NCBI RefSeq assembly: GCF_030013595.1
Contig: NZ_CP122768.1
Reading direction: 5' to 3' (one strand)
Origin: Escherichia coli
GTDB taxonomy: Bacteria > Pseudomonadota > Gammaproteobacteria > Enterobacterales > Enterobacteriaceae
DNA length: 64,000 nt
Each line of letters begins with the position of its first letter. Within the stretch, counting starts at the first letter, position 1. The position numbers were made by a program. Below, one piece after another: positions 54,601 through 57,600 of this stretch.

Positions 54601-57600
54601 TTATACCAGGATTACGCGTGGAATTTTGCCGCGTAAATGGCCTGCGAGGACCAACAGCGGCAAATGTTTATCTCTCTTAATATGAGTTGCTTGTTTAAAG
54701 CTGATGGGTTTTATTGGCATAGTTCAATAGTCAACACCATATATTATAACACAAGTTACTTTTTCACCGGGAAACTAATCCATTTAACCGAATATCTCTA
54801 CAACTAATAGTTATAAATGCCACTTAACAGCCAGTTATAGTACCACTTGAAACTATATTGCCAACAATAGTTAATAGCTTTCTTAACAATTTTCTTATCT
54901 TTAATTTGTATTTTGCTAAGATTTATCTTATGCTCACAAGTCGTATTTCCAGAGGGGAATAGTTAACAATCTTATATTTCCCTCTGCGCGCCTTTCCCAC
55001 CCGCAGTATATAGTGCTGGCGGTATGAGGAAAGGGAGATTTCACAAGGATGTTATACTCAAAGTAGATAATCCTGATCTCAAGCGTACGTATTGTCCATG
55101 CGATGAATAAAGGAAAAGTTATGAAACACAAGCTTTCTGCAATCCTTATGGCCTTCATGTTGACGACGCCAGCTGCATTTGCTGCCCCTGAAGCAGCAAA
55201 CGGGACTGAGGCAACGACGGGTACTACTGGCACCACAACGACCACTACAGGTGCAACCACGACTGCTGCTACCACTGGTGGCGTGGCTGCTGGCGCTGTC
55301 GGCACGGCGACGGTTGTCGGTGTGGCAACGGCTGTTGGTGTGGCGACGTTGGCAGTAGTTGCAGCAAATGACAGTGGCGATGGCGGTTCTCATAACACCT
55401 CAACCACCACGTCCACTACGCGCTAATACTGCTTTAACGCGTCAAAATTAAAGTTAAATGATACCCGGTTGCGATATTCGTACCGGGCTTTAGAGATTTG
55501 CATTTTTTTAATTAACCTTTCAAGGATTAAAGGTGCGCCCTCTTATTTTATCGATTTTCGCACTATTTCTTGCGGGATGTACACACAGCCAGCAAAGTAT
55601 GGTCGATACATTTCGCGCCAGCCTTTTCGATAATCAGGATATCACCGTAGCGGATCAGCAGATCCAAGCGTTGCCTTATTCCACGATGTATTTACGCCTT
55701 AATGAAGGGCAACGAATCTTTGTGGTACTGGGATATATAGAACAAGAACAAAGCAAATGGTTATCCCAGGATAACGCCATGCTGGTTACCCATAATGGAC
55801 GTCTTTTAAAGACCGTCAAACTTAATAATAATCTGCTGGAAGTAACAAATTCCGGGCAGGACCCTCTGCGTAACGCGCTGGCAATAAAAGACGGCAGCCG
55901 CTGGACGCGCGATATTCTCTGGAGTGAAGACAACCATTTTCGCTCTGCGACCCTGAGTTCCACTTTTTCCTTTGCTGGATTAGAGACGCTGAATATTGCG
56001 GGTCGCAATGTGCTGTGTAATGTCTGGCAGGAAGAGGTGACTTCCACGCTGCCAGAAAAACAGTGGCAAAACACATTCTGGGTCGATTCGGCTACTGGCC
56101 AGGTTCGTCAAAGTCGGCAAATGTTAGGCGCAGGGGTTATTCCCGTAGAAATGACGTTTCTTAAACCCGCACCATGAATAAATTACAGTCGTATTTCATT
56201 GCCAGCGTACTTTACGTAATGACACCCCATGCCTTTGCGCAAGGAACGGTGACTATTTATCTGCCTGGCGAACAACAGACACTTTCCGTTGGCCCCGTGG
56301 AAAATGTTGTCCAGTTGGTGACACAACCGCAACTGCGCGATCGCCTCTGGTGGCCTGGTGCCTTGCTGACCGACTCTGCGGCGAAAGCTAAAGCGCTTAA
56401 AGACTACCAACATGTCATGGCACAGCTTGCTTCCTGGGAAGCAGAAGCTGACGACGATGTGGTGGCAACGATTAAATCCGTGCGCCAGCAGTTACTCAAT
56501 CTCAATATCACTGGTCGCTTACCGGTCAAACTGGACCCTGATTTTGTACGAGTGGATGAGAACAGCAATCCCCCGTTGGTCGGGGACTATACGCTCTATA
56601 CCGTACAGCGTCCGGTGACTATTACTCTGCTGGGTGCGGTTTCTGGGACAGGGCAATTGCCCTGGCAGGCAGGCCGTAGCGTTACCGATTATCTGCAAGA
56701 TCACCCCCGCCTTGCAGGCGCGGACAAGAATAACGTTATGGTGATTACGCCTGAGGGTGAGACTGTCGTCGCCCCTGTTGCCCTGTGGAATAAAAGACAT
56801 GTGGAACCACCGCCTGGCAGCCAGCTTTGGTTGGGCTTTTCTGCGCATGTACTGCCCGAAAAATATGCTGATTTAAATGACCAGATTGTGTCTGTTTTAA
56901 CGCAACGTGTTCCTGACTGATGAAGAAGAACTCTTATCTTTTAAGCTGCCTGGCCATTGCCGTCTCCAGTGCCTGTCATGCTGAAGTATTAACCTATCCG
57001 GATCCGCTGGGTTCGTCGCAATCAGACTTTGGCGGCACAGGATTGTTGCAGATGCCAAATGCGCGCATCGCACCGGAAGGTGAATTCAGCGTCAACTACC
57101 GGGATAACGATCAATACCGTTTCTACTCCACCTCCGTGGCGCTGTTCCCATGGCTGGAAGGCACCATTCGTTATACGGATGTGCGCACACGCAAATATAG
57201 CCAGTGGGAAGATTTCAGCGGCGATCAGTCATACAAAGACAAATCTTTCGATTTTAAACTTCGCCTGTGGGAAGAAGGTTACTGGCTACCGCAAGTGGCA
57301 TTTGGTAAACGTGATATTGCTGGTACGGGTCTGTTTGACGGTGAGTATCTGGTGGCCAGCAAGCAAGCGGGGCCATTTGATTTCACCCTCGGGATGGTAT
57401 GGGGCTACGCCGGTAATGCGGGCAATATTACCAACCCGTTTTGCCGGGTGAGCGATAAATATTGTCATCGCGCAGAGTCTCACGATGCGGGCGATATCAG
57501 CTTTAGCGATATCTTTCGTGGCCCAGCTTCCATCTTTGGCGGCATTGAGTATCAAACGCCGTGGAATCCCCTGCGTCTGAAACTCGAATACGACGGCAAC

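What the first reader, a model, noticed from the sequence alone, without database searches (positions are those of the whole stretch)
55180..55300. Low-complexity Thr/Gly/Ala-rich coding repeat in gfcA
GfcA contains a run of ACN/GGN codons encoding TTGTTGTTTTTTGATTTAATTGG. Such tracts are prone to length variation and likely O-glycosylation-like mucin character. The tract length may differ between strains.
Basis: seen in the sequence. Interest (0 to 1): 0.2.

Follow-up and report, generated by a model that had tools for sequence, protein, structure and literature searches.

The report
Threonine-rich spacer in capsule protein GfcA
The flagged stretch is the already-known threonine-rich, probably floppy N-terminal part of the small E. 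coli capsule protein GfcA; its length is almost fixed among strains, so it is an ordinary feature and not a variable repeat.

Summary
Window 55121-55426 (+) is gfcA, the first gene of the group 4 capsule operon gfcABCDE-etp-etk. Codons 32-54 (55214-55282) encode TTGTTGTTTTTTGATTTAATTGG, with 15 Thr in 23 residues (P about 1e-13 against the window's own ORFs).

At the DNA level the tract is not a simple repeat. All four Thr codons are mixed, and the longest exact repeat in the gene is 8 nt. Of 5,426 complete E. coli genomes, 3,607 carry gfcA. About 140 sampled genes are all exactly 306 nt. I found only eight in-frame tract variants: -15 nt in 2 genomes, +18 nt in 5 and +21 nt in 1. At most 18 records (0.5%) could hold large indels. 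The dominant polymorphism is loss of the whole operon (about one third of genomes) and IS insertions.

Across 58 gfcB/yjbF loci and four distant ones, the upstream small gene keeps the same four parts. The low-complexity region varies from about 1 to 33 residues, and Thr-richness there is specific to Escherichia. The family-wide Thr run is the C-terminal tail. Glycosylation remains untested speculation that is already published (PMC8592465). Verdict: already known, low interest.

The parts
55111..55114 (+). Shine-Dalgarno-like AGGA, 6 nt before the ATG at 55121
   Evidence: Read directly from the sequence. It supports the 55121 start used by RefSeq over the in-frame ATG at 55103.
55121..55426 (+). 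gfcA coding sequence (101 codons plus stop)
55121..55183 (+). Predicted Sec signal peptide MKHKLSAILMAFMLTTPAAFA, with AFA|AP cleavage motif
   Evidence: Sequence features: basic n-region, hydrophobic core (Kyte-Doolittle 19-residue peak 1.62) and Ala at -3 and -1. Conserved across the family. hhalign aligns this part to YjbE-type proteins. Cleavage is inferred, not shown.
55184..55282 (+). Low-complexity N-terminal region of the mature protein (aa 22-54; 16 Thr of 33)
   Evidence: AF2 block-mean pLDDT is 34-38 across residues 21-60 with no helix or strand element called there.
55214..55282 (+). The flagged Thr/Gly/Ala tract TTGTTGTTTTTTGATTTAATTGG (aa 32-54)
55222..55239 (+). 18-nt unit TACTACTGGCACCACAAC that is perfectly tandem-duplicated in the 107-aa allele
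   Evidence: L014 versus window. Five genomes carry it, including two labelled O169:H41.
55223..55251 (+). ACTACTGG (55223-55230) and ACTACAGG (55244-55251), 21 nt apart: the slippage substrate of the +21-nt (108-aa) allele
   Evidence: L015 carries a perfect 21-nt tandem duplication with 8-9 nt of junction homology.
55241..55260 (+). ACCAC direct repeats (55241-55245 and 55256-55260) that bracket the 15 nt deleted in the 96-aa allele
   Evidence: Alignments. TRF reports a period-15 array at 55241-55275.
55283..55366 (+). Hydrophobic Gly/Ala/Val/Thr segment VAAGAVGTATVVGVATAVGVATLAVVAA (aa 55-82), transmembrane-like
   Evidence: Kyte-Doolittle 19-residue peak 2.16. AF2 helix 57-83 at low confidence. 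One TM predicted by SOSUI in PMC10299036.
55295..55348 (+). Imperfect 18-nt period, 3 copies, encoding AVGTAT/VVGVAT/AVGVAT inside the hydrophobic segment
55367..55423 (+). Polar C-terminal tail NDSGDGGSHNTSTTTSTTR (aa 83-101): the family-wide conserved Thr run
   Evidence: Family survey.
55533..56177 (+). gfcB (YjbF-family lipoprotein), the syntenic partner used as anchor for the family survey
   Evidence: Pfam PF11102, 233 bits. Annotation.
56174..56920 (+). gfcC
   Evidence: Pfam PF20616 and PF06251.
56920..59016 (+). gfcD (YjbH-family outer-membrane protein)
   Evidence: Pfam PF06082, 897 bits.

Best explanation
The tract is the Escherichia-specific, Thr-enriched version of a variable low-complexity spacer. 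It lies at the N-terminus of mature GfcA, a small exported protein of the GfcA/YjbE kind that is always encoded just upstream of a gfcB/yjbF-gfcC-gfcD module.

Shown:
- It is coding and sits after a signal-peptide-like N-terminus.
- It is predicted disordered, at low model confidence.
- It is followed by a Gly/Ala/Val hydrophobic stretch and a conserved Thr-rich C-terminal tail.
- Its codons are scrambled among ACG/ACT/ACC/ACA, so the DNA is not a slippery repeat.
- Its length is fixed at 23 residues in more than 99% of E. coli that carry the gene.
- The rare -5, +6 and +7 residue alleles are in-frame duplications or deletions, two of them between 5-9 nt imperfect repeats.
- Within E. coli the tract shows 6 synonymous against 1 non-synonymous variable sites.

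Inferred: after Sec export and signal-peptide cleavage, the tract forms a flexible, hydroxyl-rich, uncharged tether on the periplasmic side of the hydrophobic segment. That segment is either an inner-membrane anchor or a cargo handed to the LolA-like GfcB and the GfcD barrel. The tether acts together with GfcBCD in keeping O-antigen polymer on the cell as group 4 capsule. Function depends on composition and approximate length, not on a precise motif. Whether it carries sugar is unknown.
For: - Identity and context.
- Composition statistics and codon mixing (ACT 5, ACG 4, ACC 4, ACA 2; longest exact repeat in the gene 8 nt). Only weak imperfect periods of 15 and 18 nt.
- Length census: every full-length row in the spread samples is 306 nt. 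Allele-specific queries find 5 genomes with +18, 1 with +21 and 2 with -15. Only 18 of 3,607 records fall below 95% identity to the window allele.
- Purifying selection: 7 same-length alleles give 6 synonymous and 1 non-synonymous (A50T) variable sites in 23 four-fold-degenerate codons. The ratio is about 0.08, with binomial P about 0.007 against a 2:1 neutral expectation (computed by hand).
- Family survey: 58 of 58 gfcB/yjbF loci with enough upstream DNA carry a small ORF with the four-part architecture. The N-region runs from about 1 to 33 aa and is Ala/Gly/Glu-rich in Pantoea/Erwinia, Ser-rich in E. coli YjbE and (GA)n in one distant locus. Four of six distant loci keep the full architecture; a fifth has an atypical small ORF.
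- AF2: signal-peptide and hydrophobic segments come out helical with no structural element between them. Mean pLDDT is 45.6, so this is only suggestive.
- Genetics from the literature: a gfcA mutant of EPEC is unencapsulated and gfcA is highly expressed (PMC3853201). All gfc genes are needed for the capsule phenotype (PMC8592465).
Against: - No experiment places the tract in the periplasm or shows signal-peptide cleavage.
- The structure model has low confidence.
- The 'spacer' role is inferred from composition and family comparison only.
- Homologues function with an N-region of a few residues or without Thr, so the tract may add little.
- The strong synonymous/non-synonymous contrast rests on 7 sites and 7 alleles, and it ignores phylogeny and mutation bias.
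- The gfcA mutant phenotype could include polar effects on gfcBCDE. I did not check how the mutant was complemented.
Confidence: 0.55

Rival explanations
1. Mucin-like glycan acceptor. The Thr residues are O-glycosylated, possibly with O-antigen polymer. GfcA would then be a protein anchor or carrier of the group 4 capsule, passed by GfcB/GfcC to the GfcD barrel.
For: - The tract is an extracytoplasmic (predicted), disordered, Thr-rich region in a capsule operon.
- The speculation is stated in PMC8592465.
- Ser/Thr-rich extracytoplasmic disordered regions are glycosylated in streptococci (PMC12041528).
- The anchor of surface-retained polymers is unknown and is not WaaL/lipid A in a related E. 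coli case (PMC8117528).
- A Thr-rich C-terminal tail is conserved family-wide.
Against: - No glycosyltransferase or oligosaccharyltransferase domain is found in gfcB-etk.
- The N-terminal tract is not conserved as Thr-rich: it is Ala/Gly or Ser in YjbE-type proteins and (GA)n in L086. If Thr glycosylation is the family function, the conserved site is the C-terminal tail and not this tract.
- No paper found reports glycosylated GfcA.
Confidence: 0.2
2. Neutral low-complexity expansion. The tract is a lineage-specific run produced by slippage and drift, tolerated because the N-region is dispensable and carrying no function of its own.
For: - The N-region length ranges from about 1 to 33 aa in homologues, and its composition is not conserved.
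- E. albertii orthologues have a shorter, different tract: 94 aa in L002 and 96 aa in the type strain, while the rest of the protein is nearly identical.
- In-frame indel alleles exist in otherwise intact operons.
Against: - Within E. coli the tract has 6 synonymous and 1 non-synonymous variable sites.
- Its length is fixed in more than 99% of genomes despite measurable synonymous diversity. That is not expected for an unconstrained run.
Confidence: 0.2
3. Contingency or hypervariable repeat. The tract changes length often and switches or diversifies the capsule phenotype between strains.
For: Three independent in-frame length alleles exist, all confined to residues 32-54.
Against: - There is no homopolymer or perfect short-unit repeat, and the codons are scrambled.
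- Variants occur in 8 of about 3,591 genomes, and at most 0.5% can have large indels.
- All changes are multiples of 3, so there is no on/off switching.
- Real on/off variation at this locus comes from operon deletion and IS insertion.
Confidence: 0.03

Closest known systems
E. coli GfcA (YmcD), 'threonine-rich inner membrane protein GfcA', first gene of the group 4 capsule operon
   Same: It is this protein. The DNA is 100% identical to an annotated copy, with the same operon and the same 101 aa. The Thr richness and the glycosylation speculation are already in the literature (PMC8592465).
   Different: Nothing differs. This work adds only the length census, the rare alleles and the family comparison.
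YjbE (Pfam PF11106), the first gene of yjbEFGH and a paralogous module in the same genome
   Same: Same position upstream of a YjbF-family gene. Same architecture of signal peptide, low-complexity region, small-residue hydrophobic stretch and GDG..NT..T(n) C-terminal tail.
   Different: - GfcA does not reach the Pfam model at all, and the profile-profile comparison aligns only the signal peptide.
- The YjbE N-region is Ser/Ala-rich, not Thr-rich.
- Its hydrophobic stretch is weaker (Kyte-Doolittle 19-residue peak 1.24 against 2.16).
- yjbE is a core gene (5,420 of 5,426 genomes) with no record below 95% identity.
O-glycosylated Ser/Thr-rich extracytoplasmic disordered regions of streptococcal membrane proteins (PMC12041528)
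   Same: A Ser/Thr-rich, disordered region next to a membrane segment on the outer side of the cytoplasmic membrane (predicted here).
   Different: In streptococci glycosylation was demonstrated and the enzymes are known (GtrB/PgtC2, Pgf). Here no modification and no enzyme are known.
PEP-CTERM / exosortase substrates of exopolysaccharide loci (recalled from memory: Haft et al. 2006)
   Same: Small signal-peptide proteins, often with Ser/Thr-rich low complexity and a C-terminal hydrophobic helix, encoded with polysaccharide export genes.
   Different: GfcA has no PEP motif and no Arg-rich end after the helix. Its C-terminus is a 19-aa polar Thr-rich tail. No exosortase is in the locus.
Simple-sequence contingency loci of bacterial surface genes
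   Same: A repetitive-looking tract in a surface-structure gene, with some length alleles.
   Different: There is no perfect short-unit DNA repeat, variation is very rare, and it is in-frame only.

Membership tests
GfcA (E. coli group 4 capsule operon protein) | First gene of gfcABCDE-etp-etk, between cspH and appA | tested here: met
   Annotated context of the 100%-identical record. Pfam confirms gfcB, gfcC and gfcD downstream.
GfcA (E. coli group 4 capsule operon protein) | About 101 aa, about 30% Thr, sequence identity to the named protein | tested here: met
   101 aa with 28 Thr. Identical to WP_001299283.1.
YjbE family (Pfam PF11106) | Score above the Pfam gathering threshold (27.9 bits) | tested here: not met
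   No hit for GfcA even at E<=10. The Cedecea intermediate scores 27.6 bits and Pantoea-type proteins score 96 bits. hhalign of the GfcA-type alignment against the YjbE-type alignment aligns only residues 1-25.
YjbE family (Pfam PF11106) | Small gene directly upstream of a YjbF-family lipoprotein gene, with shared four-part architecture | tested here: met
   58 of 58 loci with enough upstream DNA. E. coli yjbE. Four of six distant loci keep the full architecture and a fifth has an atypical small ORF.
Simple-sequence contingency locus | Perfect homopolymer or short-unit tandem DNA repeat | tested here: not met
   TRF finds only 80% and 77% matches at periods 15 and 18. The longest exact repeat is 8 nt and four Thr codons are mixed.
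Simple-sequence contingency locus | Frequent length change between closely related strains, usually shifting the frame | tested here: not met
   8 variant genomes among about 3,591, all multiples of 3.
Mucin-like O-glycosylated Ser/Thr-rich region | Extracytoplasmic location and intrinsic disorder | tested here: inconclusive
   A signal-peptide-like N-terminus precedes the tract. AF2 gives no structure there, but the model is of low confidence. There are no topology data.
Mucin-like O-glycosylated Ser/Thr-rich region | Covalent glycan on Ser/Thr | not testable with these tools
   Needs mass spectrometry or glycan staining. No report found.
Mucin-like O-glycosylated Ser/Thr-rich region | Cognate glycosyltransferase or oligosaccharyltransferase | tested here: not met
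   None among the operon products (YjbF, GfcC, YjbH, Wza-like, phosphatase, kinase). An enzyme encoded elsewhere is not excluded.
PEP-CTERM sorting-signal proteins | Pro-Glu-Pro motif, then a TM helix, then a basic cluster at the extreme C-terminus | tested here: not met
   Direct reading of the sequence: no PEP motif. A 19-aa acidic/Thr-rich tail with one terminal Arg follows the hydrophobic stretch.

The most novel reading that the evidence does not exclude
GfcA/YjbE-type mini-proteins are the missing non-lipid-A anchor or primer of surface-retained polysaccharide. Their Thr-rich parts (the family-wide C-terminal tail and, in Escherichia, also this N-terminal tract) would be O-linked to O-antigen or exopolysaccharide chains. 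The small-residue hydrophobic helix would be carried by the LolA-like GfcB/YjbF to the gated GfcD/YjbH barrel for insertion in the outer membrane. That would make a bacterial 'proteoglycan' capsule. The E. coli tract would then set the number of glycan attachment sites.
Probability: 0.1. Interest if true: 0.7.

Novelty: already known. Interest (0 to 1): 0.12.

Why it matters
As found, it matters little. It is the feature after which GfcA is named, and it does not behave as a variable repeat.

The useful by-products are modest:
- A census showing that strain-to-strain variation at this locus is dominated by loss of the whole gfc operon and by IS insertions, not by tract length.
- Three rare in-frame tract alleles that could serve as natural length variants.
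- The observation that, across the GfcA/YjbE kind of protein, the conserved Thr run is the C-terminal tail. That is where a test of the published glycosylation idea should look first.

If the glycan-anchor idea were true, it would answer how group 4 capsule and related polymers are held on the cell.

Tried and rejected
1. Exact look-up of four GfcA sequences in the 15-billion-protein collection found nothing, so cluster-based length statistics were not possible. The first protein search returned mostly frameshifted or read-through gene calls from poor assemblies. Only P0002 and P0005 were useful.
2. P0002 looked like a 112-aa variant. It is the -15-nt allele fused to a deletion that removes the 3' end of gfcA and runs to just upstream of gfcE.
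3. The Pfam and NCBIfam scans of GfcA gave nothing usable. The only hit was a sub-threshold 'WGxxGxxG family' match to the signal peptide (17 bits against a cut-off of 35). I rejected it.
4. The profile-profile comparison of GfcA-type and YjbE-type alignments aligned only the signal peptide. Homology of the mature parts therefore rests on synteny and architecture alone.
5. The profile search with the GfcB alignment in the 90% clusters listed only Enterobacterales. Distant relatives came from the 50% representatives instead.
6. The AF2 model has mean pLDDT 45.6. I therefore ran no fold search. The PDB sequence search found nothing.
7. I considered a terminator between gfcA and gfcB. The hairpin at 55464-55487 lacks an adjacent T-run, the scan found none, and the fold z-score is -1.65.
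8. The antisense ORF 54934-55305 (-), 123 aa and Val/Pro/Ala-rich, is the expected mirror of ACN/GGN codons. I did not pursue it.
9. I could not list the lowest-ranked E. coli hits directly. About 10 of the 18 records below 95% identity remain unexamined; they are probably truncated or IS-disrupted copies. Single-codon indels at low frequency are not excluded.
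Full report
**1. What is there**

The ORF at window 55121-55426 (+) encodes MKHKLSAILMAFMLTTPAAFAAPEAANGTEATTGTTGTTTTTTGATTTAATTGGVAAGAVGTATVVGVATAVGVATLAVVAANDSGDGGSHNTSTTTSTTR.

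Its DNA is 100% identical to the gene annotated 'threonine-rich inner membrane protein GfcA' in E. coli 2012C-4502. The neighbourhood there is torS-yccM-gnsA-ymcE-ymcF-cspG | cspH-gfcA-gfcB-gfcC-gfcD-gfcE-etp-etk-appA. Pfam confirms the next three genes as YjbF/GfcB, GfcC and YjbH/GfcD.

It holds 15 Thr in 23 residues. That gives P about 1e-13 at the 5.9% Thr frequency of the window's own long ORFs, none of which has more than 7 Thr in any 23-residue window.

**2. Anatomy of the protein**

Reading the sequence and simple hydropathy gives four parts:
- A signal-peptide-like N-terminus, aa 1-21, ending AFA|AP.
- A low-complexity region, aa 22-54, with 16 Thr, 7 Ala and 6 Gly.
- A hydrophobic stretch of small residues, aa 55-82. 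Its Kyte-Doolittle 19-residue peak is 2.16, and it contains an imperfect 18-nt/6-aa period, AVGTAT/VVGVAT/AVGVAT.
- A polar tail, NDSGDGGSHNTSTTTSTTR.

AlphaFold2 on an 11-sequence alignment gives helices only for aa 2-14 and 57-83, with no helix or strand element between them. Mean pLDDT is 45.6, so this is only suggestive. No Pfam, NCBIfam or PDB relative is detected.

**3. Is the tract a slippery repeat?**

No.
- The 15 Thr codons are ACT 5, ACG 4, ACC 4 and ACA 2.
- The longest exact direct repeat in the gene is 8 nt, and that repeat is not in the tract.
- Tandem Repeats Finder reports only weak arrays: period 15 with 2.3 copies at 80% match, and period 18 with 3 copies at 77% match.

**4. 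Does tract length vary between strains?**

Of 5,426 complete E. coli genomes, 3,607 have gfcA. The number is the same with the sensitive blastn mode.

Every full-length row in the evenly spaced samples spans exactly 306 nt: 39 rows and 58. So do the standard alleles listed. That makes about 140 genomes in all.

Using the E. albertii gene and then each variant as query brought rare alleles to the top of the rankings:

| Allele | Change | Genomes |
|---|---|---|
| 291 nt / 96 aa | loss of GATTT | 2 |
| 324 nt / 107 aa | perfect 18-nt tandem duplication | 5, including two labelled O169:H41 |
| 327 nt / 108 aa | perfect 21-nt tandem duplication | 1 |

All three changes lie inside residues 32-54 and all are multiples of three. 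Two sit between short imperfect repeats: ACCAC 15 nt apart, and ACTACTGG/ACTACAGG 21 nt apart.

Only 18 of 3,607 records fall below 95% identity to the window allele. This caps large indels at about 0.5%. Single-codon indels at low frequency are not excluded.

As a control, the paralogue yjbE is present in 5,420 of 5,426 genomes. It has no record below 95% identity and a constant 243 nt in the sample.

**5. Selection on the tract**

Seven same-length E. coli alleles (window, K-12, E2348/69, O157:H7 and three others) differ at 7 sites within the tract. Six are synonymous and one is not (A50T), although every codon there is four-fold degenerate. This points to purifying selection. The ratio is about 0.08, and the binomial P is about 0.007 against a 2:1 neutral expectation (my arithmetic). 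The sample is small. The other replacements in the N-region are Ala/Thr swaps and E24K.

**6. What actually varies at this locus**

About one third of genomes lack the whole operon, and in those cspH lies next to appA. Many operons carry IS1, IS5 or IS3 upstream or inside. Two independent IS1 insertions sit 3 nt apart at the very end of gfcA.

**7. Family view**

A scan of one genome per species with a GfcB profile gave 61 loci. All 58 with enough upstream DNA have a small ORF with the same four-part plan.

The low-complexity region runs from about 1 to 33 residues. E. coli GfcA has the longest and the most Thr-rich one. The type-strain E. albertii locus L017 has 28 residues with 12 Thr. L002 encodes a 94-aa orthologue whose tract is shorter and different in sequence. 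Superficieibacter and Cedecea have about 6-16 residues. Pantoea and Erwinia YjbE-type proteins have Ala/Gly/Glu with 0-3 Thr. E. coli YjbE is Ser-rich.

Four of six distant YjbF loci, reached through the 50% representatives, keep the full plan. One of them has (GA)n in place of Thr. A fifth has an atypical small ORF with a poly-Pro extension, and the sixth has none.

The element conserved everywhere is the C-terminal tail: an acidic/Ser/Asn turn followed by a Thr run. The flagged tract is not conserved in this way.

Pfam YjbE (PF11106) hits the Pantoea type at 96 bits, a Cedecea intermediate at 27.6 bits (cut-off 27.9), and GfcA not at all. hhalign aligns only the signal peptide. GfcA therefore works like, and sits where, a YjbE does, but it fails the sequence-model test for membership.

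The hydrophobic stretch of E. coli YjbE peaks at only 1.24. This makes the 'inner membrane' label uncertain for this kind of protein.

**8. Literature**

- GfcA is described as 101 aa, about 30% Thr, 'inner membrane or secreted', function unknown. [quoted passage not shown]
- GfcA is called 'entirely uncharacterized' in the GfcD modelling paper.
- An EPEC gfcA mutant is unencapsulated and gfcA is highly expressed (PMC3853201).
- Overexpressed YmcD slightly lowers intracellular D-Ala, and one TM segment is predicted for it (PMC10299036).
- Surface-anchored colanic acid in E. coli is not WaaL-linked, and yjbEFGH mutations affect it (PMC8117528).
- Ser/Thr-rich extracytoplasmic disordered regions are O-glycosylated in streptococci (PMC12041528).
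- I found no report of glycosylated GfcA.

**9. Mechanism**

Most likely (confidence 0.55), the tract is a flexible, uncharged, hydroxyl-rich tether at the N-terminus of exported GfcA. It would be constrained in composition and approximate length, and act with GfcBCD in retaining O-antigen polymer.

- Shown: coding status, composition, codon scrambling, near-fixed length, indel structure, synteny and family architecture.
- Inferred: export, signal-peptide cleavage, disorder, and the tether role.

Rivals are a glycan acceptor (0.2), a neutral expansion (0.2) and a contingency repeat (0.03).

**10. Verdict**

This is a known feature of a named protein. The predicted length polymorphism exists only as rare alleles. 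The mucin-like reading is untested and is not new. Interest is low.

Noticed in passing
window 55121-62835 approx. (gfcA to etk): The whole gfc operon is absent from about one third of complete E. coli genomes: 1,819 of 5,426 have no gfcA. In those genomes cspH lies directly next to appA.
   Followed up: partly
window 55417-55423 (3' end of gfcA); L012:704-721, L013:701-718: Two independent IS1 insertions 3 nt apart, after codon 100 and after codon 99. They replace the last residues by VMTPTY and place IS1 where gfcB normally follows. This may be an IS1 hot spot.
   Followed up: partly
window 54681-55120 (cspH-gfcA spacer); L077, L082, L010, L011: Different IS elements sit upstream of gfcA in different strains: IS1D in K-12, with its transposase CDS ending 88 nt before the start codon; IS1 in ECONIH4; IS5 in the two strains with the 96-aa allele. 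About a third of the operon-bearing genomes sampled align in two pieces around an IS.
   Followed up: no
window 55295-55348: An imperfect 18-nt period in three copies encodes AVGTAT/VVGVAT/AVGVAT inside the hydrophobic segment. No length variant was seen there.
   Followed up: partly
window 55367-55423; loci L016-L076, L084-L086, L089: The C-terminal tail (acidic/Ser/Asn turn, then NT[GS]T(n)[ST]T and usually a final R/H/Q) is the best conserved part of the small proteins encoded upstream of yjbF homologues. It is far more conserved than the flagged tract. Its role is unknown.
   Followed up: partly
L083:2907-3149 (E. coli K-12 yjbE): The hydrophobic stretch of YjbE after its signal peptide is weak (Kyte-Doolittle 19-residue peak 1.24, against 2.16 in GfcA). 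It is too weak for a confident membrane helix, which questions the 'inner membrane' label for this kind of protein.
   Followed up: partly
records, e.g. NC_011601.1 1037461-1037766 (L078): RefSeq names same-length GfcA alleles inconsistently: some are 'threonine-rich inner membrane protein GfcA' and others 'hypothetical protein'. The latter group includes EPEC E2348/69, an O127:H6 strain, the serogroup in which the group 4 capsule has been studied.
   Followed up: no
window 54004-54338 (-): Rfam cspA thermoregulator (RF01766, 148 bits, E 7e-40), covering the 5' leader and the start of cspG.
   Followed up: no
window 55464-55487: Hairpin CCCGGT-TGCGATATTCGT-ACCGGG in the gfcA-gfcB spacer. It has no adjacent T-run, is not called a terminator, and its fold z-score is -1.65. 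It might still modulate the gfcA to gfcB expression ratio, since gfcA is reported as very highly expressed.
   Followed up: partly
L005:2513-3774: Some draft E. coli assemblies carry the -15-nt gfcA allele fused to a deletion that removes the 3' end of gfcA, with only about 0.9 kb left before gfcE where gfcB, gfcC and gfcD (about 3.5 kb) normally lie. The result is a 112-aa chimeric ORF.
   Followed up: partly
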